Shown here: positions 23,353 to 47,737 of the stretch, one piece after another
How positions within the stretch are numbered: the first letter of the stretch is position 1
How the letters are laid out: every line of letters begins with the position of its first letter
IMG/VR virus record: IMGVR_UViG_3300045988_137242
Length of the DNA stretch: 64,000 nt
DNA from: a virus
Reading direction: 5' to 3' (one strand)
The notes under the pieces: model-generated
Database searches by the model: none
Told to the model about the DNA's origin: nothing
What the model saw: only the letters and a program-made list of their open reading frames with translations
Program-made: the position numbers and the translations under genes

Positions 23353-23359
23353 AATTCTT

Positions 23360-29095: not shown

Positions 29096-29620
29096 ATGAG
29101 CAAGAGAACAATCAAGAATAACAGTAATAGTAAGGAGTTTGAGAAAGCCAAAGGCAAGTGTTTTTTTTCGTTCTATGATGTAGACAATGATTGTGAAGGT
29201 GATAAGTCTTTGCATAATAAGGAGAGAAGCAGTAAGAAGATTAAATTGCGTATTGACCCGAACGTTGAGATTTTCAAGATGTTCATTGATAGGGTTAAGG
29301 AAGATGGCGAGAAGGAGGGCAATGCGGTTGTTGATAATTCGGCATTGAAGGAAGCGGCAAGGCAGTTCAATGATGCCATGTTGGATGAGTTGCAGGACAG
29401 GTTGAAGAGACAGGCGAGTGTTTATGATCGTGTTGTTGAGACTTTGTTTGGCGAGCTGAACCGTTTGCGTGGTCGCATTAAGGAGCTTGAGAATTCTTTG
29501 TTGGAGAAGGATGAGGTTCTTGATGATGTGATTGAGGAGTTGGCAGACAAGGAAAGGCAGTTGTCGGCTGTTCGTGATGCTGTTGGTTATGGTGTTGATG
29601 TCAAGTGTGATGAGTTATGA
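29096..29620 (+). CDS. coiled-coil protein (174 aa)
   Basis: The C-terminal half is heptad-like and E/L/R-rich. 4-nt overlap with the next gene. Confidence 0.5.
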   Translation: MSKRTIKNNSNSKEFEKAKGKCFFSFYDVDNDCEGDKSLHNKERSSKKIKLRIDPNVEIFKMFIDRVKEDGEKEGNAVVDNSALKEAARQFNDAMLDELQDRLKRQASVYDRVVETLFGELNRLRGRIKELENSLLEKDEVLDDVIEELADKERQLSAVRDAVGYGVDVKCDEL

Positions 29621-30957: not shown

Positions 30958-33900
30958 ATGGCAATAGATAGAACGAAATTAAAGCAGATACACAATCTGT
31001 TGGCGCAGAACGGTTTTGCGCAGGACTATTCTACGTTTGAGAAGAAGTTTGCTGGTAATGCAAATTACGGCAACCGCAAGAAGGTTTATGACCTTATCAC
31101 TGAGAATGGCGGTGATATAGGCGGTTCGTATGAAGATTTCATGAAAAGGATTCAATCGAAGCCTCAGACTACTTCTCAGAGAGCGATGCAGTTTGGTGGT
31201 AGGCAGTTGCCGAAGCCTAAGCGTGCTCCGAGTAACGCTTCTCCATTCGTGCAGTCGCTGTATGCGAAGGATATGGCGGAGCGAGGTGAGCAGCAGCCTA
31301 CGGACTATGTGAGCAAGAGAGAGGACTACACTTCTCCGAAGGCTGTTCAGAACATGAGCAGGAGAAGTCAGATGGCAGGCAGGAATGCGGCTAAGTCGGC
31401 TGCAAAGGAGATAGACAAGCAGTATATGCAGTCGCAGCCAGTGATGAATACAGGAACTCCGGCAGATGAGTATGTAGGCAAGACAGAGAGACAGTTGGAG
31501 AAGCAGATGAGTGATGCTGCAGACCAATTTGTGAAGAACAATATGAGTAGCTACATTGCAAATGCAGTCTCTGGAGAACAGGATGCAGCCTTGCAGCGAG
31601 CACTCAATGCTACAGACAATGTTCCTTCAATGGCAGGATTGGGAGGAATGGGTCTGATGGTGAAAGGCAAGACTTTCAACGAACAGGTAGACCCGGATTT
31701 GATGATAAAGAATCTTGAAGGGAACTTGGATAAGAACTTGCAGAATATCTTTTCCAATCCGCAGGTTGCACAGAAGATAGAAGCAGATGCAAGAAATCTT
31801 GGTGTTTCAGTAGATACATATATCCAACGTATAGTGCCAAGCTTGCGGAATAGTCTTGCCAATGCTCTTAATGAATCGGAATATCAAAGAGCTTTGCCTA
31901 AGAATATGCTTGACAATGTAGCAAACAGATTTATCAATTCAAATACGTTGGGCAAGATGATTAGGCTTGCCACACAGACAAGGAGCCAGAGAGTCATGAA
32001 CGAACAGGCTATGGCAGCAACGGCAGCAGGCGAGAATCCATATTACAAGAGCGGAGCAATAGAAAATGTTACGGCAGATGTTGGCGGTATGGTGCTTGAT
32101 CCTGTTTTCGGTGGTGCCGCCAAGGGTGGTGCGATGGTAGCAGGCAAGTTGTTAGGCAGTGGAGCGAAAGCTGCAGCAGTAATGGCGAACGGCACGTTGG
32201 CGCAGCGTTTGGGTATGAAGGCTGCGCAGGCGGCGGTAGGTGGCGGAACAACAGGTTTTTTATTTGATGCGACAAATTCCGTTGTTCAGAATTTCTCTAC
32301 TGGTGAAGATACATCTTTGGGTAATACGTTGAAGACAGCAGTAACTGGCGGAGCAAAAGGTGCTGTGAATTTTGGCATTATGGGACTGACTGGAGTTCCT
32401 CTCGGAGAGCTTGGAAGAGGTGTCGGCATAAAGGCTGGCGGTTCATTCTGGGGTAATGTAGGAAGGGCGACAGGAAAGGTGAGCCTTGAAGCAGGCAAGA
32501 CCTATATGGAAGCTATGGGAATGTATCTCGGCGGTTATGCAGTGGGTAAGCTTGAAGGAGCCAAGGATGCCAATGGCAAGCCTATAGAGTTTGACTTGTT
32601 TGACGGAACGTTGGAGAGTCTTCCTACGGCAATCGGTTTCCGTGTTCAGCATGCACTTGGCGGTTTGAAGGGCGGCAGGAAGAATGCTAAGGGTGAAGAT
32701 ATAGGATGGTTGGGTTCTACTGTAGCGAACGTGAAGGAGTTTCTTACTTCCGACAAGGCGAAGACCTCGAACATGCTCATGAGCGAAGACGAGAGACAGC
32801 AGATATTCAATTCCGGGGCGCAGAACGGCGTGATGCGAGACGGAGAGAACATAGTGAGCTATGCGAGGAGGACAAAGAAGAACAAACTCCACTATGATGA
32901 TCCACGGACTTATGACGACCCTACAGGAAAGGAGAGCATAGAGTCAGACGTGGAGATGATGAAGAACACCTACGACCAGATAATGGCAGACCCGAAAGTA
33001 TCTTGGGATGCAAAGGCGAAGTTCTCTGCAATGGTAATGGGTGTGATGCCCGATTCGCGTCCTATGATGGACTATTGCACGTTTACGACAGAGAAGGTAG
33101 GCGGTGACGAGGCAGGAGTGAAGAAGTATATCAACGAGTATTCTGCCGACGGTACGCTGTTGTCGAAGACAAGTTACGACAATGTAGACAAGAGAGAACA
33201 GGCGTTGTATAAGATGGCGATGACAAAGGAAGGTCAGAGGCTTTGGAACGTGATGGGTACGCTTGTGGGCATAGACAAGAACAACTATGACTACCAAAAC
33301 GCTTTCTTTATGGAACGTGTGAAGGATGCGAAGGACGGTGCGGAGATACAGGCGTTTGCTGACGGAATGGGCACGAAGGGTTCGGCGGTGGAACAGGAGT
33401 TCACCAACTGGGTCTTGAACAACGGTTCGGTAATGAAGGCAATTGATGCGTTTGCCCAAGAGAGCGGCATGAAGAAAGAAGATGTTGTGAAGCTGATGAA
33501 CAAAGACCCTTTGCACAGGACGGAGGAAGAGCAGCTGCTGTGCGTGAAGCTCCGCAGGGAGATGGAGAAACAGGCATTCCCTGCCGACAAGGTTCATGAG
33601 GAGCAGAGCAATCTGGAGGGTAAGGACGTAGCGGACGACAATAGCCTTGGTACGGAGGAGCCTAATACAGGAGCCGTGGCAGAGCAGCTTGACAATCTCT
33701 CCAAGGCAGAAGAGGGTGTTGAGGCTCTGATGAGAGATAATGACGTGTTCGGAGACAACTTCAAGAAGATGCAGGAGGAGGGTATGACCAATCCTCAGAT
33801 ATACGACTGGATGATACAGAATGGCGGCATGACTCAGGAGCAGTTGAAGCCTTTTGCCGACTACATCAATGCCAATGCGAGGGTGCAGGGCATGCAGCAG

Positions 33901-36900
33901 CGGACGCAGCAGAAGATGGAGGAGCTTGTTGGCAAGGTGGTCCATGATTGGAGTTATCGAGGCACGATGAATGGTGTGAAGACCGATGGCGAACAGGTGC
34001 TGTTTGTCGAGGACAGGGACGGACGCAGACTGATGGTAGGTTCGGGTGATGTAGCCTTTGATTCCGTGACCGGCAGGGCGAAGGAAGATGTGGGCGATAT
34101 GCTTGTATGTCTTGACCCGGAGACCAAGGAACTGGTGTATATGAAGGCAGAGGATGCCAAGTTTGTCGGTGTTCAGAATCCTGATGAATTTGCCAACGAG
34201 TATCGCCAAAAGTTGCAGGAGATAAACTCTCAGCCTTATAACGAGGCAATGCAGCGACAGGCAGAGCGTGATGCGGCGAAGAATCAGCAGGAAACGAATG
34301 AAGGAGAAACGAAGACGGAAGTGGCGGCACCCGAGACACCGATGCCGAAGGAAGATAATCCTGAATTATATAAGGTGGCAGATTCACTGCAAGGAAAAAT
34401 CGGGCAGTCTTTGTCTAAGGATGAAGCGGATAGTCTTGTGTCTGAAATGGAAAATCGTGCCGAACCTGCAAGAGAATTGGAGTTAACACCAGAGAACTGG
34501 ACTGCCGAATTTGGTGAAGACGGTAAGGTTGCAACCCCACTCGGCGAGGTAAAGATGGGAGAGAACCAATACTTTAAACTTGCCAAGGAGGGAAGAAACG
34601 GAAAACTTGGTTTGATTAAGCCTACATTGGAAGACCCAGATGTAATCATCGAGGATGCAAGTCAAGCTAAAGAAGGTCAAGTAACAGAACGTCATAGTTC
34701 ATACTTGTTTGTAAAAGCATTCACTGGCAAGGATGGAAATCGTGTATATTACTTTACTTCTGTTACGGTTAGCCGTGATGGAAAAGAGGTTGTAGTTTCC
34801 AACCAAGAAAGAAGAGCAAAACGAATTGCTACGGTAATGGAGAGTGGAAAGATTCTATATTTAAAAGGAAATCAGTCTGCATCCGTTGCGCAGAACGAGA
34901 AGCCTGTTTCTCTTGGTGATTCGAACTCCTCTACTACTACAGGCAGTCAAGGAGCCTTGCACGGTATCAATTCACCTGATTTACATGGCAAAGATACGAA
35001 CAATTCTTCAAACGGCAATGGGAATGAAGGAACTTTAACACATTCTGCTGCTTCTTACGAGAAGAATGACATACCTGTAGACAAGGACGGAGAGCCGGCT
35101 TACGAGCAGGTGCCGAAGGAAAGGACAGTAGAGGATTTGTTCGGCAAGCTTGGCGGTGACGGTAATCTTGCACATAGCTTTGCGGAAGCCAAGGTAGCGG
35201 AAGCAGAGAAGGAGCGGAAGGCTTTGTTGAAGAAAGAGCCTAAGATGGGAACCAAGATAAACGAGTATCTGAAGAAGAAGCGTGAGCATGATGAAGCTGT
35301 CAAGGCAGCAGAGGCAAAGGTTGCCTACTGGAATGACGTGAAAGGTGAGATAGAGAAGCTGACACACACCACCCCTGAAGAGCTGAAGGAGCAACAGGCA
35401 GAGCTTGAAGGTACTGCAGCTACGGCAGAGCACAAGGCGTTGTATGGCGAGGGTCAGCCAGCAGACGGCACCGCTCTTGCAGCGAAGTTCGTTGCTGATG
35501 CCAAGATAACGCCAGAGAGTTTCAAGAAAGAGACAGGTTTCGGTACAGCAGAGCAGGCAGGTTTCGTGGGCATGATAGCCAAGGAAGAGAACGGCGGCAA
35601 GTCTATAGAGCGTCTTGCCGAGGACTTGGTGTACTATGACAACACGGAACATAACGGTACGTACTTCCACGGCGACACCAACGAAGCGAGAAACGCCATC
35701 ATCTCAGCCTTGGGTGCAGCGAGAACCCGTAAGGGACTCCGAGAGCTTGCCCAGCCCGACCTTGCGAAGTTTGAGAGTGAGCGAGCACAGGAGCGAGACA
35801 ATGCTTATCATGAGGCTTACGGTATGGATTATGAAGAATATTTGGCATATTCTGAGCAGGAAATGCCTCATATATTAGAAAAAATAAATAACTTTGACGA
35901 GGAAAAGTATCTGCAAGACAAGGCAGAGGAGATTACGAACCAAATAGATAAAGAACATGGAAAAGCAATTGGAAGAGATGAGTCCGCAGGAGAAGAGCCA
36001 GTATATGGTGAAGGCGATAAAGTTCTGCCTGGCACACGGACTGATGAGCGAGGAGGAGGTGAAAGCCCCGAAGAACATGCAGGAAGAACGGAAGCTGAGC
36101 GCAGAAGCGATACTGAAAATGCGGCTCTACCAGAAGAAGCATCCTCAGGAGCCGGAAGAGTAGATGAGCGGCAGAAAGAAGTTGATGAGGCAGTGAAGCA
36201 TGTAGCCACTGAGATAACGAAACAGACAGGTATTGAAGTGGTTACTGACGAGCGTGAGGGTCAGAGTGCTTTGGAGAGAGGTTTGCAGGTAGACAATAGC
36301 GTTAGAGAGCATAGAGCTTCGGCAGGCAGTACGATAGCAGGCATGCAACTGTTGCCAAAAGAACTGCGTATGAACGAGAGTGTGCTTACTGACCAGATAT
36401 TGAACTATCATGGTGACTACATAGGCAAACTTCTTGAAAATGCTCAAGAAGATTCGTCCGTATCATACTTCTCCGCTCATGATGGCAAATGGTACTTCTA
36501 CAGCGTTGATAAAGACAGGAACATAAACATCTTGGATGCCGTAGAAGCATCAAGAGAAAACTTCGATTTATTTAAAGATAAACTGAAAGAATATGGATTT
36601 GACGGAAAATCAACAGCTCTTCGTAATGCTTTGTCGTCGTATGGCTACATCGGACGAACAGACAGCGATTTGCTTAAGTCTTTTCTCGCTGGAGGAACAC
36701 AAAGCCGCAGTAGATTTCGTGATGGAGAGACTTCGGAAGGGAGAAGAGCCGACAGAAATAGAGTGGCTGGAGAAGCTGACGGAACTCAATCTGAAGGCGA
36801 TACGCAAGAAGCGAGGGAAATAAGGCAGTTCCGCACCAAGGATGGTGAGGTGTATGGCTTTACTGTAGACGGCAAGATATATCTTGACACGAAGAAGATG

Positions 36901-39900: not shown

Positions 39901-42900
39901 AAGACTATAGGCGAATACAACTATGGCAGCGCATTATTTGAGACGATGAAGGTGGCGAATATCATAGACCGCATAAAGCAGCATCTTGACGCAGGGCGCA
40001 AGGTGGTGATATTCCACCGCAGGACAGAGACGAAGACTCCGATAAAGCCACCGTTCGCCTATATGCTTGAAGTTGCCAACAAGGAAATCTCTCTGATGCG
40101 ACCGGGCAAGGAGAGGGAAGAGTATATCCGGGAGGTGAATGCTTTCCGCAAGGAGCATGCCGGGCTGTTGCAATGGGAGAAGACCTTGGACTACAGTATG
40201 CCGAGAGAGCAGCTTGCCAAGGTGTTCGGCAAGAACAACGTGCTGTTCTTCAGTGGCAAAGAAAGCAAGACGGTGAAGGATAAAGCCGTAGATACGTTCA
40301 ACGACGACAATAGCGGCAAGAATATCATTGTGATACAGGAGGCGAGCGGCAAGGAAGGAATCTCTCTGCACGACACGACAGGCAAGCATCAGCGAGTATG
40401 TATAACGCTTGGTCTGCCTCAGAGCCCAATCACGGCATTGCAGATAGAGGGACGCACGTACCGAATCGGCAACAAAAGTAATGCCATCTTTGAATATCCG
40501 GTATTGGGTTTGAACTCTGAGATGATGCTGTTTGGCGAGAAGTTCAACAATCAGGTGTCAACGACAGAGAATCTTGCACTTGGCAGTCAGGCGAGAAACT
40601 TGCGAGAGAGCTTTGCTAAAGGTATACTGGAGCATAGCGGAGTAGTACCTATTGACCAACAGGGAGTCGGCGGCAAGGAATTTGACGCACCAAAGCAAGG
40701 TGACAGTGATCCGTTTGATGATGCCGTGCTTGACTACTACAGCAACCAGAAGCTCAACAGGAAGAACCGAGAAGGTGTGGACTATTTTCCAACGCCGGAG
40801 CCACTTGGCTACAAGATGATGGAATGGGCAAGAGCCGGAGAGGGCGACACTATATTGGAGCCAAGTGCCGGACATGGAGCTATAGCAAGGTATGCGCCCA
40901 AGGAGAACCAGTTGACAGGAATAGAGCCAAGTCAGAGCCTGTTCGCCAAGTTGCAGTTGAAGGCAGGAGGTTTGGGCAGGAAATTCATGAACACCGTGTT
41001 TGAGAACTACGACATAAGCAACAAGCACGACGTAGTTGTAATGAATCCACCGTTCGGTACGGCAGGAGCGACAGCGATAGCCCATCTCGACAAGGCTTTC
41101 AAGCACTTGGAGGAAGGCGGTAGAGTAGTAGCCATAATACCGAGAGGCAGCACCGACAAGAAGTTTGACAAATGGCTGGACGGACAGAAGAACGTTGCCA
41201 TGCGTGCAGAGGTAGACCTACCCGACATAGTATTCCAGCAGGCTGGAACATCGGTAGTGAGCCGTGTTGTGGTGCTCGACAAGATAACGGATGCGGCATT
41301 GCGCAGCAAGGCAGGCAAAACGGAGCGTATAGACCTTAGCGGACGCTATGACAAGATAGAGGATTTCTTTGAGGAGCTGAGAAATATAGAGATGCCTGAG
41401 CGAATCATAGACACGCAAGCCAAGATGCAGAAGAAGGCGAAGGCGGCAAAGACCAGTATCAAGGAGATAAAGGGTGTAAGAGACGTGAAGCTTGACAAGA
41501 ACGGCATTTTGGTAAGCATGCGAGGTGACTGGATGGACTACGGCATCAGTTTCTCGGGCAGCGACAAGCCTCAATATTGGAGAGAGAAGATGTCAAACTT
41601 CTACGAGAAGTATGAGGAGTTGGAGAAATCAGCCTTCAACGAAGACAAGAAAGCTGTATTCAGCGAGATGAAAGAGCTTAGCTGCAAGCTTGCCGGAATG
41701 ACCGAGGACGAGATGCAGAGATATATAGCAGGTCGCAGGAACAGTGGCGAACAGGATGGTGTTCATTTCAGAACAGAGGAAGATATAGAGGATGTTAACA
41801 AGAGGTTCAATGAGCGTCTTGAAAGTCTGAAAGCTGACCCTAAACAAAAGGGTGGAGAACTGAAACTTGGATATCCGGGTACATTCTTAAAAGATGCAGG
41901 ATTTGGTGACAGCGAAATTGTTTTGGAATATGCCAAGATAGAAAGAAAGTCATCGGAGGAATACAAGAATGACCATCCTTTTGATGTTGAAGATATAAAG
42001 GATTTGCCGAAAGCCATAAATACCCCTATTGCCGTATTTGATAATACAAACGGGAAAGAGGCAGGAAAGACAATTCTTACAGAGCTGCAAAAGGACGGAA
42101 AGAATTTTATTGTTGCTATACGTGCAGCAGAACGTCGTCAAAAGGGTGGAATAGTTTTGGAAGTAAACGAAATAAAAACTTTGTTCCCGAAAGAGGCACG
42201 TGGAATCGTAAATTGGTTTAACACGGGTAAGACCTGTAATGTAGACAAAGAAAAAGCCCTCACTTGGTTAGGGGCCCTCCGCACCCATCGCGGAACCTGG
42301 CTAACCGAGCAAGAGCTTTCTTCTGCCACAAATGTAGTGAAAGATTTTGATATAGAAAAGCGCAAGTCGCTGAATTTTCGCATAGGGGACAATAAAACCG
42401 AAAAACAGAACAATTCTGTTGCGACAATATCAGAAGATGCGCCAGTAGTGGTGAAGCATGTGGACAGAGTGTCGAAGGAGACAGGAGTGAAGGTGAACAT
42501 GGTGCAGAGCGCAGAGGAAGTGAACAGTCCGAGAGTGAAGAAAGCCATAGAGGATGGCAAAGAGGTTACAGGCTGGTATGACGAAAGGACAGGCGAGGTG
42601 CATCTGTATATGCCGAATATCCATGACCGGTATACCGCCGAGAAGACCATCTGGCATGAGACGGTAGGACACAAGGGCATGCGTGGATTGATGGGCGAGC
42701 AGTTTGACAAATTCCTTCGTGACATGTGGTATGACCTTGACAAGCCCGAGAATGCGGAGCTGAAGAAGCTCGTGGACGAAGAGAGGAGACGCAATCCTCT
42801 GAATATCTATGATGCCATAGAGGAAGGGATAGCGAGACTTGCCGAGGAAGGCAGAGGCGAGCCGGGCTTTTGGCGAAATATCAGAAACAAGGTGACGGAC

Positions 42901-45900
42901 TTCTTCCGTGAGATAGGCTACAGGATAGCACCGAACACGAAGGACGTGAAGTATCTGTTGTGGCTGAGCAAGAACCTACAGAAGAATCCTAACGATGTGT
43001 TCTACAAGATGAGGGCAGAAGCCGTGAGATGGCGACTGGACCATGAGGCAGTACCCGATGTGATAGAGGCGAACGGCATGTTCTTTGACAATGACGGGAA
43101 GAATCGAGAATACGTGCTTGACTTGAGCCAAAAGGACTTTGAGCAGGCTACAGACGGTAAGATACATTTCAGGACATCACCAGCCACGGCATCCAAGATA
43201 GAAGAGTATAACAGACGACTTGAAGGGAAAATCTACTCAGCCAAGGAGAGTACGGTGGACTATATGCAGTCTGTGCAGGAGTATATGGAAACCGTATCGG
43301 GAAAGAAGAATGTGGCAAGAGACATCCCGTCTTCTTGTAATCCGCTGCAAGCTGAAAACAGAAGCAGTAGTATAAGTCAGAAGAAATGCGATAGATACGA
43401 CAGGAAGTATATGACTCCTCTTGATGATGTTTTCAAGAAAGTTATTTCGTATGTGGATGGAAAGAACAGCGATTTCCAGAAGCAGAATACGGAGCTTTAT
43501 ATGATTATGAAGCATGGACTGGAGAGAAATCGAGTGTTCTTTGTGCGCGACCGTATCGGAGAAAATCTGAGAGAGGAAATAAAGAGCATAAGGGAAGCTG
43601 CTGAGCAACAGCCAGAACCGAAGAAATGGGAACGCACAGAGACAGAGAAGGCGAAGATGAAAGCAGATGCTCTGTCAAAAGAGTGGGAACAGAAGTTTGG
43701 TGAGCTGAGCAAAGACTTGGAAGATGGCAAGCTACAGCTTGACGAATACTACGGACAGATGGACGAGTGGATTCGCAGTAAGATATACGAGGAGTATGAA
43801 TCCACCAAATATGACTACTCCGGTCTTACTGATATTATCAAGAACACTAAAGACTGGAAGAGTGATGCCGACATCATAGAAAAGGTAAAGGATGTAGAGA
43901 AGAAAATCAATGACGGGAAGAGCGGATTGGTAAAGGAATTCTGGGAGAAGAAGAGAGCCGCTACCGATGCTATCATAGATTCGGAATACGATTCGGGTAA
44001 GATAGACAAAGATTCGGCGGCGCACTTCAAGAGTATGTTCAACTGGTATGTGCCATTGAGAAAGTTCAATGAGACTACCGCCGAGGATGTATACGGTTAT
44101 ATCACAGAGAGCGGCGACCCCAGTCAGTATATAGGTTCTGTCATAGCCAAGGCGAACGGACGAAAGAGCCTTAGCGATACCAATGTGATGGCTCAGATAT
44201 TTGCGATGGCGAAAAGTTCCATAATAAGCGGAGAGAAGAATATTGTGAAACAATACTTCGCAAGATTCGTGGAGGCTTACGAGACAGGCGAAGCACAGGA
44301 AAAGGTTTTTGTAGAGATACATCCTTGGGCTGAAAGGCATGTCGTTGACGGCAAAGAAGTGTGGGAAGAGGTATATCCACAAGTGCCAGAGGATGCCACC
44401 CAGCATGAGATAAGCGATATATTACAGACTTTTGAAGACAAGATGCGGGCGAAGGAGGCTTTGGGCGAGGCAAGGCTATTGACACGTAGAGGCAGTGTCG
44501 GCTACAAGTTTCAGCGTGAGAAAAACAAGAATGAGCATATAGTAGAGGTGTATATTGCCGGTAAGAAGCGTATGTATTTCTGTCAAGGCAACCCACGGGC
44601 AGCCCAAGCGATAAACGGTCTGTTGCACGATTCTGGAACGTCAAAAGGCAAGCTGTCGGCATGGATTTCAAAGAAGTCGTCATCCATCAACAGGACATGT
44701 GCGCAGCTGAACACGTCATACAACCCGGACTTCTTCTCCTCCAACATGGTACGAGACTTTACTGTGTCATCCGCAATTCTTGTCAAGGAAGGACCGAAAT
44801 ACGCAAAGAGGTTCTGTAGGGAGTATTACAACAACTTGAAGTTCCTCAATGGTGAGGACAGCTATTGGAAGATGCTCGGCAAGTATAACAATGACAAGAT
44901 AGACGAAAGCAACACACGTCAGAAGTACTTCAAGGAGTTCATGGACAATGGCGGTCAGACAGGTTTCGTGCAGCTTGAGAAGCTTGAAAGAGTCATTAAG
45001 GAGTATAACAACCTTGTAAAGACAGGCAAGAGAGACGCTGACGGATGGTTTGCGAGAGCTTTGAAGAAGGCGGGATTCATCGAGATCGCTAACGAGACGT
45101 TTGAGAACATAGCGAGATATTCATGCTACGTGACATCAAGAGAGTCTGGGCGAAGTATAGGACGAAGTGTATATGATGCAAAGGAAGTTTCGGGCAACTT
45201 CAATAGGCACGGAAGCGGAGATGCCATCAGTACTTTGAAGACAGCGAATGACAGTAAGTCGGACGTGGCGTTCAGAAATGTAGTCGGCTTCTTCAACAGC
45301 TACATGAAGAATCACACGATGTTCTACAATGCTGGTGTGCAGGGTGCGAACATGTTGTTTAAGAACTATAAGTTTGCTCCTGTGGCAACGGCAATGTCGT
45401 TAGGTGTGATGCCGTTTGCCTTGAATATGGCAATCGCTGCGATAAACCAGTTTTTGATGGGCATAGAAGACGAGAAGAAGCGAGGTGGCGTGAAAGACCC
45501 TTATGCCGAGTTGCCAGAGTGGAAACGAAGGAACAATATCAACATCTATATATTTAGAGGTCATTTCTTCACGTTGCCGTTAGGTATAGAGTTGAGAGCC
45601 TTTTACGGGCTTGGCGATGTAGCCTTGGCACATAGCTTCTATGATGGTTTGAAGAGTGACACTCCGATAGGATATGACATACTCGGACAGTTGGCGCAGC
45701 TGGTACCAAGTTCTGACTTTTTGGGGCATCATGCTCCGGGCGACAATACAACAGACGCATTGAAGGATGTAGCACTTGCTGTAACACCAACAGCACTGAA
45801 GGCTGGTGGTGAACTTGTAGCTAACAGAGACTGGACGGGGCGACCGATATACCGAGACCAGACCTATCTTGACATAGCTCCAAGATGGAAGCGAGCTTAT

Positions 45901-46548
45901 GACAGTACGAATGAAGCGTTTGTAAAAGTTAATAAGTTGGCAAACAAATGGACTGCGGATATGCCGGATGCGACGGAAGATATGAAGGGTAATGATGCGG
46001 CAGACTTTTGGACAGCCCCTTACGGTTGGCAGCACATGATGGAAGGTTATGTTGGCGGTATGGGAGCTACCATAGGCAGAGTGGCTAAGACAGGATATGC
46101 CGTAGGCAAAAGCCTTAAGGCTGGATATAATGGCGAGAATGCTATCAAGGATGCTTATGCCGAATGGGAGAAGTTTGACAAGAATCAGATACCATTATAC
46201 CGAAACTTCATCTATACTTCCACCGAGGGGCATGACATGCAGAGAACGAAGTCGAAGTGGTACAACTATACAGATGAGCTACGGCAGACGAAGTATAACT
46301 TAGACCAGTTGAAGACCAATACTCCCGACTTGAAGTTAAACTTGGAGAACGAGGCTAAGAAGTATAAGTTCAGTCAAGGCAAGGAGGGTCGGAGGCTTGA
46401 AATATGGAATGCTGCAAATAGTTATATCGGCAAGAAGAAGAATCTTCTGAAGAAGACCTCAGACCCAGAGGTAATAAAGTCGATAAATAACGACATCAAT
46501 CTTAAGATGCAGGAAGCCGTGAGGGATTTGGATAAGTTGAGTGAGTAG
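30958..46548 (+). CDS. giant polyvalent protein (5,196 aa): zincin, SNF2/DExH-like helicase, N6-adenine DNA methyltransferase, second zincin-like motif, hydrophobic segments
   Basis: Uninterrupted 15,591-nt ORF. Motifs read directly: HEYTH (aa 1988-1992); GTGTGKT (2620-2626), DECH (2715-2718) and QIEGRTYRIG (3162); ILEPSAGHG (3299) and NPPF (3363-3366); HETVGH (3900-3905). Confidence 0.85.
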   Translation: MAIDRTKLKQIHNLLAQNGFAQDYSTFEKKFAGNANYGNRKKVYDLITENGGDIGGSYEDFMKRIQSKPQTTSQRAMQFGGRQLPKPKRAPSNASPFVQSLYAKDMAERGEQQPTDYVSKREDYTSPKAVQNMSRRSQMAGRNAAKSAAKEIDKQYMQSQPVMNTGTPADEYVGKTERQLEKQMSDAADQFVKNNMSSYIANAVSGEQDAALQRALNATDNVPSMAGLGGMGLMVKGKTFNEQVDPDLMIKNLEGNLDKNLQNIFSNPQVAQKIEADARNLGVSVDTYIQRIVPSLRNSLANALNESEYQRALPKNMLDNVANRFINSNTLGKMIRLATQTRSQRVMNEQAMAATAAGENPYYKSGAIENVTADVGGMVLDPVFGGAAKGGAMVAGKLLGSGAKAAAVMANGTLAQRLGMKAAQAAVGGGTTGFLFDATNSVVQNFSTGEDTSLGNTLKTAVTGGAKGAVNFGIMGLTGVPLGELGRGVGIKAGGSFWGNVGRATGKVSLEAGKTYMEAMGMYLGGYAVGKLEGAKDANGKPIEFDLFDGTLESLPTAIGFRVQHALGGLKGGRKNAKGEDIGWLGSTVANVKEFLTSDKAKTSNMLMSEDERQQIFNSGAQNGVMRDGENIVSYARRTKKNKLHYDDPRTYDDPTGKESIESDVEMMKNTYDQIMADPKVSWDAKAKFSAMVMGVMPDSRPMMDYCTFTTEKVGGDEAGVKKYINEYSADGTLLSKTSYDNVDKREQALYKMAMTKEGQRLWNVMGTLVGIDKNNYDYQNAFFMERVKDAKDGAEIQAFADGMGTKGSAVEQEFTNWVLNNGSVMKAIDAFAQESGMKKEDVVKLMNKDPLHRTEEEQLLCVKLRREMEKQAFPADKVHEEQSNLEGKDVADDNSLGTEEPNTGAVAEQLDNLSKAEEGVEALMRDNDVFGDNFKKMQEEGMTNPQIYDWMIQNGGMTQEQLKPFADYINANARVQGMQQRTQQKMEELVGKVVHDWSYRGTMNGVKTDGEQVLFVEDRDGRRLMVGSGDVAFDSVTGRAKEDVGDMLVCLDPETKELVYMKAEDAKFVGVQNPDEFANEYRQKLQEINSQPYNEAMQRQAERDAAKNQQETNEGETKTEVAAPETPMPKEDNPELYKVADSLQGKIGQSLSKDEADSLVSEMENRAEPARELELTPENWTAEFGEDGKVATPLGEVKMGENQYFKLAKEGRNGKLGLIKPTLEDPDVIIEDASQAKEGQVTERHSSYLFVKAFTGKDGNRVYYFTSVTVSRDGKEVVVSNQERRAKRIATVMESGKILYLKGNQSASVAQNEKPVSLGDSNSSTTTGSQGALHGINSPDLHGKDTNNSSNGNGNEGTLTHSAASYEKNDIPVDKDGEPAYEQVPKERTVEDLFGKLGGDGNLAHSFAEAKVAEAEKERKALLKKEPKMGTKINEYLKKKREHDEAVKAAEAKVAYWNDVKGEIEKLTHTTPEELKEQQAELEGTAATAEHKALYGEGQPADGTALAAKFVADAKITPESFKKETGFGTAEQAGFVGMIAKEENGGKSIERLAEDLVYYDNTEHNGTYFHGDTNEARNAIISALGAARTRKGLRELAQPDLAKFESERAQERDNAYHEAYGMDYEEYLAYSEQEMPHILEKINNFDEEKYLQDKAEEITNQIDKEHGKAIGRDESAGEEPVYGEGDKVLPGTRTDERGGGESPEEHAGRTEAERRSDTENAALPEEASSGAGRVDERQKEVDEAVKHVATEITKQTGIEVVTDEREGQSALERGLQVDNSVREHRASAGSTIAGMQLLPKELRMNESVLTDQILNYHGDYIGKLLENAQEDSSVSYFSAHDGKWYFYSVDKDRNINILDAVEASRENFDLFKDKLKEYGFDGKSTALRNALSSYGYIGRTDSDLLKSFLAGGTQSRSRFRDGETSEGRRADRNRVAGEADGTQSEGDTQEAREIRQFRTKDGEVYGFTVDGKIYLDTKKMKPETPLHEYTHLWTEALKKKNPEEWENVKKLFDEVEGLKDEVQKLYPEQEGDALYDEMIATYSGREGTKKLEAVVRELAAKNGSGVAESVKEQGFIYKVKEALQKYWKGVADMLHIHFTTAEEVADKVLADWAKGVNPKEEKVDEKKEAVKAEEPKLPLNPIERTALEYHEEKVGAARKAYEEAKASGDESEMKRTRDEFKKALDDKLKAQGVGLVQRRKEIANELGKEEAEKIDKPWKDMDGEERMAVAEQNPLTEEEIRNKTSEENQDLIEDAIDYLNGNHGFAQQIAYLKIYDDVRNRHENVSGDSGTGDRTQLDAANTTGGEGLGLGRGRESGGPDGPVDRGAGNEAASGERTGGESGKDNPTLPVGKQGDKQGEGSPSGMGGLSAGGADATGGGAVSGDGHVSDGSGRGGVDRSSKPDARRKPAAKQGTTWRNRTGAEIKQEAKEAKEGLKAALKEMLKRGRGEASISLTGLNSRQIEYVPELMKAVKRYGMSLIDQGIYKVKDWMNNIREGIYDDMKAIGFTDKDIDDFIEEMWNSKMPMDGETHTIAEWSTIYGNAQLRKKLSEKLGEKYERQMAAEPIAVKVGDRKNIEETLPFLLPQQQEDVLKAETQFFGNEHADREHAYGKGYLFTNGTGTGKTYTGLGIAKRLAKQGKGRILFVTPSQKKVNDWMKDGKNLGLDIRDLDSWAKERGTTATTESGEGMVITTFANFGLNKKLLETEWDAVIYDECHRIMENKKGAETARSMQHYMMTNRDENHCFLRLQETNKDYQKMRLASEKFDEERSNEIGRIMREYKESHPEARTKDVINATYKLQPKELNSFAPADAAKFPKLGKAYQEFMSAKEHYYKDVEPKLREQAKNTWKKTKTIFLSATPFNTRENLDYVEGYIFKYPEMSDDGMNGRTRFYLDHFGAAYKYRYHRLEQTVSNPDAIAKQEVAFSDYLQNTLGTMSGRIIDSPYDYSRDFPTVSPDHAEEFNIAVQDAVRGRYLGSAYRKTIGEYNYGSALFETMKVANIIDRIKQHLDAGRKVVIFHRRTETKTPIKPPFAYMLEVANKEISLMRPGKEREEYIREVNAFRKEHAGLLQWEKTLDYSMPREQLAKVFGKNNVLFFSGKESKTVKDKAVDTFNDDNSGKNIIVIQEASGKEGISLHDTTGKHQRVCITLGLPQSPITALQIEGRTYRIGNKSNAIFEYPVLGLNSEMMLFGEKFNNQVSTTENLALGSQARNLRESFAKGILEHSGVVPIDQQGVGGKEFDAPKQGDSDPFDDAVLDYYSNQKLNRKNREGVDYFPTPEPLGYKMMEWARAGEGDTILEPSAGHGAIARYAPKENQLTGIEPSQSLFAKLQLKAGGLGRKFMNTVFENYDISNKHDVVVMNPPFGTAGATAIAHLDKAFKHLEEGGRVVAIIPRGSTDKKFDKWLDGQKNVAMRAEVDLPDIVFQQAGTSVVSRVVVLDKITDAALRSKAGKTERIDLSGRYDKIEDFFEELRNIEMPERIIDTQAKMQKKAKAAKTSIKEIKGVRDVKLDKNGILVSMRGDWMDYGISFSGSDKPQYWREKMSNFYEKYEELEKSAFNEDKKAVFSEMKELSCKLAGMTEDEMQRYIAGRRNSGEQDGVHFRTEEDIEDVNKRFNERLESLKADPKQKGGELKLGYPGTFLKDAGFGDSEIVLEYAKIERKSSEEYKNDHPFDVEDIKDLPKAINTPIAVFDNTNGKEAGKTILTELQKDGKNFIVAIRAAERRQKGGIVLEVNEIKTLFPKEARGIVNWFNTGKTCNVDKEKALTWLGALRTHRGTWLTEQELSSATNVVKDFDIEKRKSLNFRIGDNKTEKQNNSVATISEDAPVVVKHVDRVSKETGVKVNMVQSAEEVNSPRVKKAIEDGKEVTGWYDERTGEVHLYMPNIHDRYTAEKTIWHETVGHKGMRGLMGEQFDKFLRDMWYDLDKPENAELKKLVDEERRRNPLNIYDAIEEGIARLAEEGRGEPGFWRNIRNKVTDFFREIGYRIAPNTKDVKYLLWLSKNLQKNPNDVFYKMRAEAVRWRLDHEAVPDVIEANGMFFDNDGKNREYVLDLSQKDFEQATDGKIHFRTSPATASKIEEYNRRLEGKIYSAKESTVDYMQSVQEYMETVSGKKNVARDIPSSCNPLQAENRSSSISQKKCDRYDRKYMTPLDDVFKKVISYVDGKNSDFQKQNTELYMIMKHGLERNRVFFVRDRIGENLREEIKSIREAAEQQPEPKKWERTETEKAKMKADALSKEWEQKFGELSKDLEDGKLQLDEYYGQMDEWIRSKIYEEYESTKYDYSGLTDIIKNTKDWKSDADIIEKVKDVEKKINDGKSGLVKEFWEKKRAATDAIIDSEYDSGKIDKDSAAHFKSMFNWYVPLRKFNETTAEDVYGYITESGDPSQYIGSVIAKANGRKSLSDTNVMAQIFAMAKSSIISGEKNIVKQYFARFVEAYETGEAQEKVFVEIHPWAERHVVDGKEVWEEVYPQVPEDATQHEISDILQTFEDKMRAKEALGEARLLTRRGSVGYKFQREKNKNEHIVEVYIAGKKRMYFCQGNPRAAQAINGLLHDSGTSKGKLSAWISKKSSSINRTCAQLNTSYNPDFFSSNMVRDFTVSSAILVKEGPKYAKRFCREYYNNLKFLNGEDSYWKMLGKYNNDKIDESNTRQKYFKEFMDNGGQTGFVQLEKLERVIKEYNNLVKTGKRDADGWFARALKKAGFIEIANETFENIARYSCYVTSRESGRSIGRSVYDAKEVSGNFNRHGSGDAISTLKTANDSKSDVAFRNVVGFFNSYMKNHTMFYNAGVQGANMLFKNYKFAPVATAMSLGVMPFALNMAIAAINQFLMGIEDEKKRGGVKDPYAELPEWKRRNNINIYIFRGHFFTLPLGIELRAFYGLGDVALAHSFYDGLKSDTPIGYDILGQLAQLVPSSDFLGHHAPGDNTTDALKDVALAVTPTALKAGGELVANRDWTGRPIYRDQTYLDIAPRWKRAYDSTNEAFVKVNKLANKWTADMPDATEDMKGNDAADFWTAPYGWQHMMEGYVGGMGATIGRVAKTGYAVGKSLKAGYNGENAIKDAYAEWEKFDKNQIPLYRNFIYTSTEGHDMQRTKSKWYNYTDELRQTKYNLDQLKTNTPDLKLNLENEAKKYKFSQGKEGRRLEIWNAANSYIGKKKNLLKKTSDPEVIKSINNDINLKMQEAVRDLDKLSE
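32051..32560 (+). other. domain: Gly/Ala-rich hydrophobic region of the giant protein
   Basis: GGMVLDPVFGGAAKGGAMVAGKLLGSGAKAAAVMA...GIMGLTGVPLGELGRGVGIKAGG...YLGGYAVGKLEG has glycine-zipper-like composition. Confidence 0.5.
36830..37030 (+). other. domain: zincin-like metallopeptidase motif 1
   Basis: GEVYGFTVDGKIYLDTKKMKPETPLHEYTHLW contains HExxH. The context resembles the peptidase domain I recall from polyvalent proteins. Confidence 0.55.
37800..38220 (+). other. domain: Gly/Ser/Asp-rich disordered linker
   Basis: GDSGTGDRTQLDAANTTGGEGLGLGRGRESGGPDGP...GGADATGGGAVSGDGHVSDGSGRGG. Confidence 0.6.
38690..40530 (+). other. domain: SNF2/DExH-like helicase
   Basis: LPQQQEDV (Q-motif-like), GTGTGKT (motif I), DECH (motif II), SATP (motif III-like), QIEGRTYRIG (motif VI). 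Confidence 0.75.
40771..41290 (+). other. domain: N6-adenine DNA methyltransferase
   Basis: YFPTPEPL, ILEPSAGHG (SAM-binding motif I) and VVMNPPFG (motif IV, NPPF). Confidence 0.75.
42560..42760 (+). other. domain: second zincin-like motif (HExxGH)
   Basis: GEVHLYMPNIHDRYTAEKTIWHETVGHKGMRGL. HExxGH is the zinc motif variant I recall from the M49 family. The assignment is tentative. Confidence 0.35.
45371..45462 (+). other. domain: strongly hydrophobic helix or helices near the C-terminus
   Basis: KFAPVATAMSLGVMPFALNMAIAAINQFLMG (about aa 4805-4835). Confidence 0.5.
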
Positions 46549-47256: not shown

Positions 47257-47498
47257 TTGTTGTAATATTCTCTATATTTTTCACTATAACATATATGGCA
47301 TGGTGTTTTATACATGTCTATAGCTTCTTTTTTTGTAAGCTTCATAACAATACCACTGCAATTCCTTAATCCCTTGCAATACTCTGTCCTGTGGAATCTT
47401 CTTGAATATCCTCCAGTACATATATACACATTATCTGCACAAGACGACAGAGTTATAACTCCTAAGAGTACATAAAATAATAAGACTGATTTCTTCAT
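47253..47498 (-). CDS. small Cys-motif lipoprotein (81 aa from MKKSVLL)
   Basis: Lipobox LSSC, then VYICTGGYSRRFHRTEYCKGLRNCSG...KTPCHICY. Paralog of 50020-50226. A minus-strand -7 box TACTTTTG lies at 47529-47536. Confidence 0.6.
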   Translation of the reverse strand: MKKSVLLFYVLLGVITLSSCADNVYICTGGYSRRFHRTEYCKGLRNCSGIVMKLTKKEAIDMYKTPCHICYSEKYREYYNK

Positions 47499-47737
47499 AG
47501 AAATAATTGTTAAAGCGTAATCCTTTTGCAAAAGTATAAAAAAAATCAATAGGGTGTATCTTAAAAAAGTGTTTTATTTTTTTTGATGCAAATAATCCTC
47601 ATGGTAAGTGGTTGAAAGTATGGTAGTTAGGTGTGGAAAAATAGATGTTGAGGATAGTTAGGCATGATGGATATTGGTTAGTAACTTTGCAGCAAGTTCA
47701 ATAGTGGACGAAACCAACACAAAAACTATTTATTATT

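What the first reader, a model, noticed from the sequence alone, without database searches (positions are those of the whole stretch)
30958..46548. One 5,196-codon ORF encodes a multi-enzyme polyvalent protein occupying a quarter of the window
Seen: a 15,591-nt ORF with no stop.

Motifs seen, in order:
- a glycine-zipper-like hydrophobic region (aa ~365-535)
- HEYTH zincin (1988-1992)
- a G/S/D-rich linker
- helicase motifs GTGTGKT, DECH and QIEGRTYRIG (2620-3171)
- N6-adenine methyltransferase motifs ILEPSAGHG and NPPF (3299-3366)
- HETVGH (3900-3905)
- a hydrophobic helix at about aa 4805

Established: fusions of peptidase, SNF2 helicase and DNA methylase in very large proteins of phages and conjugative elements have been described as polyvalent proteins. 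Phage P1 packages DarB, a methyltransferase-helicase protein, and co-injects it to block restriction.

Inference: this protein is virion cargo delivered with the DNA and acts as a combined anti-restriction and establishment effector. Its size, domain order and the extra ~3,000 residues with no recognisable motif make it the strongest candidate for new biology here.
Basis: partly seen in the sequence, partly recalled or inferred. Interest (0 to 1): 0.85.

Follow-up and report, generated by a model that had tools for sequence, protein, structure and literature searches.

The report
Giant phage polyvalent injected protein
The 15.6-kb gene is real and encodes a 583-kDa multi-enzyme "polyvalent protein" of a temperate gut Bacteroidales phage, a known kind of protein that related phages carry in their virions, so it is a new member of a known class, not new biology.

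Summary
It is a phage-type polyvalent protein in the sense of Iyer et al. 2017. Pfam finds PBECR2, an SF2 helicase, MuF_C and LPD38. PHROGs and the sequence motifs support an N6-adenine methyltransferase.

The new result is its build. A lineage-specific N-module (aa 1 to about 1150) and a roughly 1,370-aa C-module (aa 3831-5196) form a conserved chassis. One relative (2,435 aa) is the chassis alone. About 2,700 aa of exchangeable effector domains sit in between. A phage about 93% identical in DNA carries a kinase cassette instead. A gene about 99% identical from aa 2120 onwards lacks only the 378-aa HEYTH cassette.

The core of the C-module matches Burkholderia phage JC1 gp69 and Stx phage phi24B gp47, both found in virions by mass spectrometry. 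Gene order is also shared. Packaging and ejection are therefore likely but inferred.

Similarity to P1 DarB is limited to catalytic motifs, and the domain order is reversed. Neither HExxH-type domain matched a known zincin by profile or fold. Giant genes of this kind are already deposited (Bacteroides phage BKO1-TP3 gp55, 5,553 aa) and are common in IMG/VR (up to 6,478 aa).

The parts
30958..46548 (+). Whole gene: 5,196-aa, 582.7-kDa, pI 5.7 phage-type polyvalent protein
30958..31248 (+). N-terminal leader (about aa 1-97), which also heads other polyvalent proteins that have different bodies
   Evidence: many hits cover only aa 1 to about 75-97; those proteins carry ddrB-ParB, LPD13, LPD14 or PBECR2.
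30958..34407 (+). N-module (aa 1 to about 1150), first half of the conserved chassis; no known domain
   Evidence: only 98 of 1.84 billion cluster representatives match, mostly at the N-termini of 4,000-6,017-aa proteins; 32-86% identity in relatives; no Pfam or PDB hit.
32050..32637 (+). Conserved Gly/Ala-rich stretch (aa 365-560) inside the N-module
   Evidence: composition, GxxxG-type spacings, hydropathy below transmembrane level; conserved across divergent relatives
34513..34860 (+). PBECR2 domain (aa 1186-1301), a predicted BECR-fold RNase
   Evidence: PF18810, E 3e-10, 40.6 bits against a cut-off of 27.1
35101..36147 (+). Recurrent domain of unknown function (aa 1382-1730)
   Evidence: 37% identity to the N-termini of P0008-P0011; also matches BF1-TP2 gp68 and, in part, BKO1-TP3 gp55.
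36182..37315 (+). HEYTH cassette (aa 1743-2120): a HEXXH domain, putative gluzincin-like peptidase. It is absent from otherwise near-identical genes. The HEYTH motif lies at 36919-36933.
   Evidence: 1,134-nt in-frame insertion relative to L093/L129, flanked by an imperfect direct repeat. H1988, E1989, H1992 and E2038 are invariant. AF2 pLDDT 78 with three strands followed by the motif helix; no match to known zincins.
37825..38217 (+). Gly/Ser/Asp-rich flexible linker (aa about 2290-2420)
   Evidence: 33% Gly in aa 2301-2400
38758..40497 (+). SF2 helicase/translocase, SNF2/Strawberry-notch-like (aa about 2601-3180), with motifs I, II and VI intact
   Evidence: ResIII 1e-12, DEAD, AAA_34, Helicase_C, Helicase_C_4; weak DrmD hit; motifs.
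40765..41337 (+). Gamma-class N6-adenine DNA methyltransferase (aa about 3270-3460): PTPEP, LEPSAGHG (motif I), NPPF (motif IV)
   Evidence: PHROG DNA methyltransferase families at 2.8e-29, 1.1e-18 and 5.5e-9. Pfam MTS only 0.001, below its cut-off; motifs.
41953..42258 (+). MuF_C domain (aa 3666-3767), a PBECR-type predicted RNase or RNA-binding domain
   Evidence: PF18819, E 4e-18, 66 bits; present or absent among relatives.
42448..46545 (+). C-module (aa 3831-5196), second half of the conserved chassis; mostly helical, fold not represented in the PDB
   Evidence: more than 70 homologues. AF2 of aa 3831-5030, pLDDT 74, pTM 0.64; no PDB match; 65 BFVD matches to C-terminal parts of phage large polyvalent proteins; 188 loci in genomes, nearly all Bacteroidales.
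42448..43047 (+). HEXXXH domain (aa 3831-4030; HETVGH at aa 3900-3905), which always opens the C-module
   Evidence: H, E, G and H are at least 90% conserved; helix, three strands, then the motif helix. Iyer 2017 describes an HEXXXH variant; no profile or fold match.
45373..45465 (+). The only transmembrane-like hydrophobic helix (aa 4806-4836)
   Evidence: Kyte-Doolittle 19-residue maximum of 1.65
45496..46095 (+). LPD38 domain (aa 4847-5046). The PLxRFG-like motif PLYRNF follows at aa 5079-5084 (46192-46209).
   Evidence: PF18857, E 5e-23, 82.6 bits against a cut-off of 27; motif.
28089..28832 (+). Upstream 247-aa protein with an N-terminal hydrophobic segment; possible partner internal virion protein (inferred)
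   Evidence: homologue of BKO1-TP3 gp57 and BF1-TP2 gp70, which lie upstream of those phages' giant genes; hydropathy.
29096..30939 (+). Two upstream genes (174 aa, acidic coiled coil; 440 aa, basic and low-complexity) that complete the small-medium-giant gene order (inferred partners)
   Evidence: Synteny with JC1 gp67/gp68/gp69, BKO1-TP3, BF1-TP2, phi24B and the P0054 contig. Only a marginal sequence match to BF1-TP2 gp69.

Best explanation
The gene encodes a phage-type polyvalent protein. It is made late, packaged inside the capsid in a few copies, and expelled through the short tail into the host at infection.

It has two parts. The first is a conserved chassis: the N-module (aa 1 to about 1150) and the C-module (aa 3831-5196, comprising an HEXXXH domain, a long helical region, one membrane-like helix and LPD38). 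I infer that the chassis provides capsid incorporation and ejection or envelope passage. The second part is about 2,700 aa of exchangeable effector domains strung between the two modules on flexible linkers.

In this phage the cargo is:
- a PBECR2 RNase-like domain;
- a domain of unknown function;
- a HEXXH putative peptidase;
- an SF2 (SNF2-like) translocase followed by a gamma-class N6-adenine methyltransferase;
- a MuF_C domain.

The helicase-methylase pair most likely tracks along and methylates the entering phage DNA, so that host restriction enzymes do not cut it. This is what P1 DarB is thought to do. The RNase-like domains would act on host or defence RNAs. The two HExxH-type domains would cut the polyprotein into working pieces.

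Shown here: domain content, the chassis/cargo build, cassette exchange between near-identical phages, and homology of the C-module core to virion-associated proteins. Inferred: packaging in this phage, ejection, proteolytic processing and every enzymatic activity.
For: Domains. Phage context (P22-like portal, integrase, tail-fibre-like genes).

Chassis and cargo:
- P0054/P0055 (2,435 aa) join the N-module directly to the C-module, in the same gene neighbourhood.
- Among 11 giants that match the N-module query, 9 have LPD38, while ParB, LPD3, helicase, kinase, InPase and MuF_C vary.
- 42 IMG/VR contigs combine the same helicase-methylase cassette with different N- and C-modules.

Exchange at DNA level:
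- Window versus L003 is collinear at 91-95% identity, except giant aa 1742-3761, where L003 has a kinase cassette.
- Window versus L093/L129 is 99% identical from aa 2120 onward, with a clean 1,134-nt HEYTH-cassette indel flanked by a short imperfect repeat.

Virion association by homology:
- phi24B gp47 matches aa 4571-4969 at E 3.5e-18, and JC1 gp69 matches aa 4575-4753 (blastp extends this to aa 4577-5036 at 1e-16).
- Both are in purified virions by mass spectrometry (PMC9144972; bioRxiv 10.64898/2026.04.10.717836).
- The phi24B authors propose an ejection role.

Further support:
- Synteny of small, medium and giant genes.
- The C-module fold recurs at the C-termini of phage polyvalent proteins, some of which carry lytic transglycosylase domains.
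- Catalytic motifs of the helicase and methylase are intact.
- A beads-on-a-string build is how the N4 authors propose the giant vRNAP passes through the tail (PMC13434306).
Against: - No data on virions, expression or methylation exist for this phage.
- Homology to the mass-spectrometry-verified proteins covers only about 400-460 aa at about 25% identity.
- No sequence or fold similarity was found to any structurally characterised ejection protein: the PDB Foldseek search returned nothing.
- Only one hydrophobic helix is present, which is meagre for a channel former.
- The link to DarB is weak. blastp finds nothing at 1e-3, phmmer aligns only the catalytic motifs, and the order helicase-then-methylase is the reverse of the LPD36-methylase-helicase dyad.
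- Peptidase identity of the two HExxH-type domains is unproven.
- Whether the PBECR2 and MuF_C copies are catalytically active was not assessed.
Confidence: 0.7

Rival explanations
1. The protein is packaged and ejected, but the SNF2-like ATPase is mainly a motor. Anchored at the envelope by the chassis, it pulls the genome into the cell, much as transcription by the N4 or T7 polymerases does. Methylation or anti-restriction would be secondary or absent.
For: - Intact Walker A and B motifs and arginine-finger motif.
- Iyer 2017 notes that SNF2 ATPases translocate on dsDNA without unwinding it.
- The N4 giant ejected protein is an enzyme that acts on the entering DNA.
- Helicase cassettes are frequent in this family.
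Against: - Chassis-only relatives and relatives with kinase or ParB cargo lack any ATPase but share the gene neighbourhood. A motor therefore cannot be essential for DNA entry in this lineage.
- The helicase is followed by an intact methyltransferase here and in every relative aligned across both domains.
Confidence: 0.12
2. It is not virion cargo. It is a cytoplasmic anti-defence, replication or establishment protein made after infection or in the lysogen.
For: - No direct virion data exist for this phage.
- The gene is about 13 kb from the portal gene here, whereas it is adjacent in BKO1-TP3.
Against: - Homologues are found in virions.
- A 15.6-kb gene is slow to express and would come too late to protect entering DNA.
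Confidence: 0.1
3. The long ORF is an assembly chimera or a fusion of adjacent genes.
For: It is a metagenome-like sequence with a mosaic relationship to its relatives.
Against: - Dozens of independent contigs have uninterrupted frames of 4,350-6,478 aa with the same module order.
- The right-hand 10-14 kb is 98.9-99.0% identical to two IMG/VR contigs across the domain junctions.
- The cassette indel is in frame.
- Cultured phages have annotated genes of 3,633-5,553 aa.
Confidence: 0.02

Closest known systems
Phage-type polyvalent proteins (Iyer, Burroughs, Anand, de Souza, Aravind 2017, PMC5512222)
   Same: Many disparate effector domains in one giant polypeptide. LPD38 and PBECR2 (phage-only), MuF_C, an SNF2-like ATPase with an adenine methylase, and HEXXH/HEXXXH motifs. 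Encoded next to packaging and structural genes. Predicted to be packaged and delivered.
   Different: The N-module, the domain at aa 1382-1730 and most of the C-module are not covered by any Pfam model. Neither HExxH-type domain hits the MPTase-PolyVal model. The explicit chassis-plus-cassette build, with a natural cargo-less form, was worked out here.
Bacteroides phages BKO1-TP3 gp55 (5,553 aa, 'DarB-like antirestriction') and BF1-TP2 gp68 (3,633 aa) (PQ571269, PQ571263; PMC12694917)
   Same: Temperate gut Bacteroidales phages with a related portal (32-35% identity). Same gene order. Homologous C-module (about 25% identity over about 1,200 aa). An upstream small-protein homologue.
   Different: Their N-terminal parts and cargo are unrelated apart from one shared domain. 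The paper does not discuss the gene.
Burkholderia phages Bcep22 gp75 and JC1 gp69 (4,515 aa, DarB-like), Lessievirus
   Same: A podophage of about 61 kb whose giant gene takes about 22% of the genome. Preceded by two virion-associated proteins of similar sizes and followed by two reverse-strand genes. Virion-associated by mass spectrometry. Homologous to the C-module core.
   Different: Similarity is only about 25% over 460 aa. The host phylum differs, and so do the N-terminal part and the cargo.
Stx phage phi24B gp47 (about 2,810 aa; LPD5, LPD1, LPD38, MuF-C)
   Same: LPD38-bearing giant protein. Abundant in virions but invisible in cryo-EM. Proposed ejection protein. Matches aa 4571-4969 (E 3.5e-18). 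The giant gene follows a gene of about 420 aa.
   Different: Half the size, and no helicase-methylase was reported by its authors. The ejection role is a proposal, not a demonstration.
Phage P1 DarB (2,255 aa)
   Same: N6A-methylase motifs (TP, LEPSAG, N/D-PPF) and an SF2 helicase motif VI in one virion protein. Works like an in-cis anti-restriction factor.
   Different: No significant overall similarity. Domain order is reversed, no LPD36 was detected, and P1 is a myovirus with a separate Dar packaging system.
Coliphage N4 vRNAP gp50 with ejection proteins gp51/gp52
   Same: A giant (about 3,500-aa) multi-domain enzyme stored in a podovirus capsid and threaded through the tail together with two smaller ejection proteins.
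   Different: No homology was detected. N4's enzyme is an RNA polymerase.
Klebsiella Lastavirus 'PLxRFG protein' (495 kDa)
   Same: Giant protein taking about 19% of a 62-kb podophage genome. Shares the helicase-methylase module in the same order (34% identity).
   Different: Proteobacterial host; its function is not studied.

Membership tests
Phage-type polyvalent protein (Iyer et al. 2017) | Two or more functionally disparate effector domains in one polypeptide | tested here: met
   PBECR2, SF2 helicase, MuF_C and LPD38 pass Pfam cut-offs. The methyltransferase is supported by PHROGs and motifs.
Phage-type polyvalent protein (Iyer et al. 2017) | Domains restricted to the phage-type class (LPD38, PBECR2) | tested here: met
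   LPD38 82.6 bits and PBECR2 40.6 bits. The paper states that both occur only in the phage type.
Phage-type polyvalent protein (Iyer et al. 2017) | Encoded in a phage or prophage with portal-terminase packaging genes | tested here: met
   P22-like portal at 59345-61360, tail-fibre-like genes and an integrase. No terminase was identified in the ORFs scanned.
Phage-type polyvalent protein (Iyer et al. 2017) | Packaged in the capsid and delivered with the DNA | not testable with these tools
   Only by homology of aa about 4570-5040 to virion proteins of JC1 and phi24B.
Zincin-like metallopeptidase (MPTase of polyvalent proteins) | HEXXH (or HEXXXH) on a helix, plus a Glu ligand on a later helix | tested here: met
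   HEYTH domain: H1988, E1989, H1992 and E2038 are invariant in 11 sequences at 30-75% identity, and the motif residues are kept in all 36 further segments aligned. HETVGH domain: H, E, G and H are at least 90% conserved, with near-invariant Glu residues about 50-65 residues downstream.
Zincin-like metallopeptidase (MPTase of polyvalent proteins) | Three-stranded sheet preceding the active-site helix | tested here: met
   AF2 models. HEYTH domain: strands at residues 12-15, 21-26 and 29-32, then helix 41-57 carrying the motif. HEXXXH domain: helix, strands 16-19, 42-45 and 50-54, then helix 61-82 carrying the motif. These are predictions at pLDDT 74-78.
Zincin-like metallopeptidase (MPTase of polyvalent proteins) | Significant profile or fold match to a recognised zincin | tested here: not met
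   No Pfam hit even at E 5. hhalign against the P1 DdrB MPTase, and between the two domains, gives probability below 1%. PDB profile search finds nothing. Foldseek against the PDB finds nothing.
P1 DarB-type methylase-helicase dyad | EcoKI/TaqI-like adenine methylase with an N-terminal TP motif, motif I and motif IV | tested here: met
   PTPEP, LEPSAGHG and NPPF align with DarB's TPKP, LEPSAGTG and NVPFG. PHROG methyltransferase families reach 2.8e-29. Pfam MTS is below its cut-off.
P1 DarB-type methylase-helicase dyad | Order LPD36 - methylase - SF2 helicase | tested here: not met
   Here the helicase (aa 2601-3180) precedes the methylase (aa 3270-3460), and no LPD36 hit was found.
P1 DarB-type methylase-helicase dyad | Sequence homology to DarB beyond the catalytic motifs | tested here: not met
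   blastp finds no hit at 1e-3. phmmer with filters off aligns only short motif-bearing stretches, with negative bit scores.
LPD38 / PLxRFG giant virion proteins of podophages (Bcep22 gp75, JC1 gp69, phi24B gp47, Lastavirus) | C-terminal LPD38 domain in a protein of more than 2,500 aa, homologous to members shown to be in virions | tested here: met
   The fold is shared with 65 BFVD entries. The PLxRFG motif is present as PLYRNF.
Structurally characterised podovirus ejection proteins (T7 gp14-16, P22 gp7/16/20, N4 gp50-52) | Sequence or fold similarity | tested here: not met
   PDB sequence searches and Foldseek against the PDB gave no match. Only the small-medium-giant gene order is analogous.

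The most novel reading that the evidence does not exclude
The N-module and the roughly 1,370-aa C-module together are an essential, previously undescribed ejection and delivery chassis of Bacteroidales podophages. Its C-module core is shared with phages of Proteobacteria. Effector cassettes (helicase-methylase, kinase, ParB, RNases, peptidases) are swapped into it by recombination at short repeats and at shared domain edges. That would make it a natural, programmable protein-injection platform, analogous in logic to polymorphic toxins.
Probability: 0.4. Interest if true: 0.55.

Novelty: new member of a known kind. Interest (0 to 1): 0.3.

Why it matters
These giant genes take about a fifth of the genome in a widespread group of temperate phages of Prevotella, Segatella, Bacteroides and related gut bacteria: 188 confirmed loci in species-representative genomes, nearly all labelled Bacteroidales. 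If the chassis/cargo reading holds, comparing cargo between near-identical phages gives a direct read-out of which host defences matter in the gut. The cargo-less natural variants also offer a ready-made control for experiments. The conserved C-module, whose fold has no solved relative, would be the part worth solving.

None of this changes the classification. The protein belongs to a class described in 2017, and homologues have been found in virions.

Tried and rejected
- **Near-identical DNA.** Megablast of the gene against the phage and plasmid collections found no match.
- **PDB sequence searches.** Both halves of the protein, and profiles of the HEYTH domain and the C-module, gave only chance-level hits such as S100-B.
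- **Fold searches.** Foldseek of both AF2 models against the PDB gave nothing below E 0.01. The zincin claim could therefore not be confirmed, and the C-module could not be tied to T7, P22 or N4 ejection proteins.
- **Profile comparison.** hhalign of the HEYTH domain against the HEXXXH domain, and of each against the P1 DdrB peptidase, was not significant. The profiles are shallow (Neff about 2.3-2.6).
- **Family libraries.** NCBIfam added only weak helicase hits. Pfam on ten overlapping segments at E 5 added no new domain.
- **Internal repeats.** DNA repeats inside the gene and a protein self-comparison found no meaningful repeats. The short repeat flanking the HEYTH cassette appeared only on comparison with L093.
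- **Conjugative element.** Rejected: portal, tail-fibre-like and integrase genes are present, and the domains are phage-only.
Full report
**1.

- The ORF at 30958-46548 on the + strand starts with ATG and runs 5,196 codons.
- The other two sense frames of the same DNA carry 355 and 330 stops, so chance is excluded.
- The product is 582.7 kDa with pI 5.7.
There is a 33%-Gly linker around aa 2301-2400, and exactly one strongly hydrophobic segment at aa 4806-4836.
- The 'glycine-zipper' region (aa 365-560) is Gly/Ala-rich and conserved, but it is not hydrophobic enough to score as transmembrane.

**2. Context**

The window is a temperate tailed phage. It has:
- a P22-like portal (59345-61360);
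- RecT and SbcC-like genes, Ant/Rha and KilA-N regulators, and PcfJ;
- tail-fibre-like proteins;
- an integrase at 18490-19704.

No near-identical DNA exists in the phage or plasmid collections. A Hadza gut-metagenome contig (L003) shares the neighbouring genes tested at mostly 85-99% protein identity. A scan of species-representative genomes with the C-module profile confirmed 188 loci (80 listed), nearly all labelled Bacteroidales. The closest are in Segatella copri, Ca. Segatella violae, a Tannerellaceae MAG and Leyella stercorea. The host is therefore probably in the Prevotellaceae.

**3. Domain content**

| Residues | Domain | Evidence |
|---|---|---|
| 1186-1301 | PBECR2 | Pfam |
| 2601-2736 and 3076-3182 | ResIII, DEAD, AAA_34 and Helicase_C, Helicase_C_4 | Pfam |
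| 3270-3455 | N6A-methyltransferase | PHROG methyltransferase families to 2.8e-29; Pfam MTS sub-threshold |
| 3666-3767 | MuF_C | Pfam |
| 4847-5046 | LPD38 | Pfam |

- Motif I precedes motif IV by 64 residues, and a PTPEP motif lies upstream. This is the gamma-class, EcoKI/TaqI-like arrangement that Iyer et al. describe.
- This is therefore a phage-type polyvalent protein. The class, and the hypothesis that its members are packaged and injected, were published in 2017 (PMC5512222).

**4. Anatomy: a chassis with exchangeable cargo**

Local BLAST of the protein against homologues shows three kinds of region.

- *N-module.* Residues 1 to about 1150 (to about 1750 in close kin) are conserved. An exhaustive HMMER search found it in only 98 of 1.84 billion cluster representatives, almost always at the N-terminus of proteins of 4,000-6,017 aa.
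- *C-module.* Residues 3831-5196 have more than 70 homologues at 25-63% identity.
- *Interior.* Everything in between varies from relative to relative.

Evidence for this build:
- P0054/P0055 (2,435 aa) consist of the N-module joined directly to the C-module. They sit in the same neighbourhood: PcfJ and PcfK, then genes of 239, 135 and 481 aa, then the giant gene, with a P22-type portal gene downstream, on a 64.8-kb contig.
- Among 11 giants that match the N-module query, 9 have LPD38. ddrB-ParB, LPD3, helicase, PBECR2, LPD23, InPase, kinase, MuF_C and LPD1 come and go.
- 42 IMG/VR contigs carry this helicase-methylase cassette (36-99% identity; 60-99% in 40 of them). They hold open frames of 4,350-6,478 aa with N-modules at 95, 57, 51, 44 or about 33% identity or none, and C-modules at 100% down to 25%.

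**5. Exchange is visible in the DNA**

- Against L003 the window is collinear at 91-95% identity on both sides and through the N- and C-modules. Window 36182-42240 (giant aa 1742-3761, 6.06 kb) is replaced by 3.8 kb that encodes a Kinase-PolyVal cassette.
- Against L093 and L129 the window is 92.7% identical up to aa 1742 and 98.9-99.0% identical from aa 2120 to the end of the gene and beyond. In between, the window has an in-frame 1,134-nt insertion (aa 1743-2120), which is exactly the HEYTH domain.
- The insertion is flanked by an imperfect direct repeat: GTAGATGAGCGGCAGAAAGAAG and GTGGATGAGAAGAAAGAAG, encoding VDERQKE and VDEKKE.
- The left edge coincides with a motif, AVKHVATEITKQTGIEVV, that recurs as VVKHVDRVSKETGVKV at aa 3831, the start of the HEXXXH domain.

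**6. The two HExxH-type domains**

*HEYTH domain.* H1988, E1989, H1992 and E2038 are invariant across homologues at 30-75% identity. An AF2 model (pLDDT 78, pTM 0.73) puts three strands before the motif helix.

*HEXXXH domain.* Residues 3831-4030 always open the C-module. H, E, G and H are at least 90% conserved. The model shows a helix, three strands and then the motif helix. Iyer et al. explicitly describe an HEXXXH variant among polyvalent-protein peptidases.

Both domains thus fit a minimal gluzincin. However:
- neither hits any Pfam model even at E 5;
- hhalign finds no relation between them or to the P1 DdrB peptidase;
- PDB profile searches and Foldseek find nothing.

I record 'putative peptidase, unconfirmed'.

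**7. Relation to DarB**

- The label 'DarB-like' used in databases is loose.
- blastp of the whole protein against P1 DarB gives nothing at 1e-3.
- phmmer without filters aligns only the methylase motifs and helicase motif VI.
- The order here is helicase then methylase. The archetypal dyad is LPD36-methylase-helicase.
- The same reversed module is widespread in podophage giants: Ruegeria 45A6 (35% identity), Serratia Parlo, Pseudomonas Skulduggery, Klebsiella ZX1 and Vibrio phages, grouped in phrog_10691 and phrog_5143.
- It may well work like DarB, but it is not a DarB orthologue.

**8. Evidence that it is virion cargo**

None is direct. The indirect evidence is as follows.
- The C-module core (about aa 4570-5040, covering the hydrophobic helix and LPD38) is homologous to JC1 gp69 (blastp 1e-16; phmmer 3.3e-10) and to phi24B gp47 (3.5e-18).
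- JC1 gp69 (4,515 aa, 22% of the genome) was found in CsCl-purified particles by mass spectrometry, as were the two proteins encoded just upstream (PMC9144972).
- phi24B gp47 is abundant in virions yet invisible in the cryo-EM map. Its authors propose that it is an encapsidated ejection protein.
- The gene order small, medium, giant recurs in JC1, phi24B, BKO1-TP3, BF1-TP2, Ruegeria 45A6, the P0054 contig and this window.
- The 247-aa upstream protein is homologous to BKO1-TP3 gp57 and BF1-TP2 gp70.
- The AF2 model of aa 3831-5030 (pLDDT 74) has no PDB neighbour. It matches 65 BFVD entries, all C-terminal parts of phage large polyvalent proteins, some of which carry lytic transglycosylase, RelA/SpoT or L,D-transpeptidase domains.
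- The N4 authors propose that the loosely linked, beads-on-a-string build of the giant vRNAP lets it pass the tail channel. The Gly-rich linker and modular build here fit that picture.

**9. Mechanism proposed**

The chassis is the part needed for incorporation and ejection. The cargo domains ride on it into the cell.
- The translocase-methylase protects the entering DNA.
- The BECR-type domains act on RNA.
- The HExxH-type domains release the pieces.

The structural facts are shown; packaging, processing and activities are inferred. The main rival is that the ATPase serves as a DNA-entry motor. This is weakened by relatives that lack any ATPase.

**10. Novelty**

Cultured Bacteroides phages already carry annotated genes of this kind: BKO1-TP3 gp55 (5,553 aa) and BF1-TP2 gp68 (3,633 aa). 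So do Lessieviruses, Lastaviruses (495 kDa) and Stx phages. Longer versions, up to 6,478 aa, exist in IMG/VR.

The exact combination in this window (L093-type gene plus the HEYTH cassette, with a more divergent left part) was not found elsewhere, but each component was.

What is added here:
- the explicit chassis/cargo picture, including a natural cargo-less form;
- DNA-level cassette swaps between near-identical phages;
- the finding that LPD38 is a small part of a roughly 1,370-aa conserved module, at least 1,200 aa of which has no fold match among solved structures.

I rate it a new member of a known kind, of moderate-to-low interest.

Noticed in passing
window 18490-19704 (+): Tyrosine-integrase-like ORF (phrog_1, E 5e-35) overlapping two minus-strand ORFs. 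It shows that the phage is temperate.
   Followed up: partly
window 46606-47256 (-) and 47253-47549 (-): Two genes convergent on the giant gene. One is a multi-pass membrane protein (hydropathy maximum 2.8). The other is a small protein with a signal peptide and an LSSC lipobox-like site. They hold the same position as the two reverse-strand genes that follow the giant gene in Bcep22-like phages. They could be a lysogenic-conversion or exclusion pair.
   Followed up: partly
window 32947-34365 (-), inside the giant gene: A 473-codon stop-free antisense stretch, of which 395 codons are also open in the relative L003. The in-register antisense frame has only 68 stops in 5,197 codons, so long antisense ORFs are expected here and are probably not genes.
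   Followed up: partly
window 30958-31248 (giant aa 1-97): The first 75-97 residues recur at 40-69% identity at the N-terminus of other polyvalent proteins with unrelated bodies (ddrB-ParB, LPD13, LPD14, PBECR2). They could be a shared capsid-targeting or portal-docking leader.
   Followed up: partly
window 36153-36181 and 37316-37344: Imperfect direct repeat (GTAGATGAGCGGCAGAAAGAAG and GTGGATGAGAAGAAAGAAG) flanking the 1,134-nt HEYTH cassette. The near-identical genes L093 and L129 have one copy and no cassette.
   Followed up: yes
window 29617-30939 (+): The 440-aa protein just upstream of the giant gene is very basic (pI 9.6), Asn/Gln/Gly-rich and low-complexity, with no family hit. The 174-aa protein before it is an acidic coiled coil.
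   Followed up: partly
window 20871-23821 (-): PcfJ-like (PF14284), PcfK-like and MutS_I-like genes sit in the phage early region. The first two families are named after conjugative-plasmid proteins. The same trio is in L003, and PcfJ and PcfK are also in the P0054 contig.
   Followed up: no
window 1-4000: Low-GC block (0.34, against 0.43-0.51 elsewhere) packed with small minus-strand ORFs of 90-130 aa.
   Followed up: no
window 51389-52537 (-) and 53042-54313 (-): Two tail-fibre-like proteins that share a short motif matching phrog_38707 and many tail-fibre PHROGs. The second also matches part of the 2,638-aa BKO1-TP3 gp44.
   Followed up: no
L116 (IMGVR_UViG_3300045988_104140) and L119: Related giant ORFs of 6,478 and 6,184 aa carry the same helicase-methylase cassette at 61% identity, with no match to this N-module and a C-module at only 25% identity. 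They are larger than the gene studied here.
   Followed up: no
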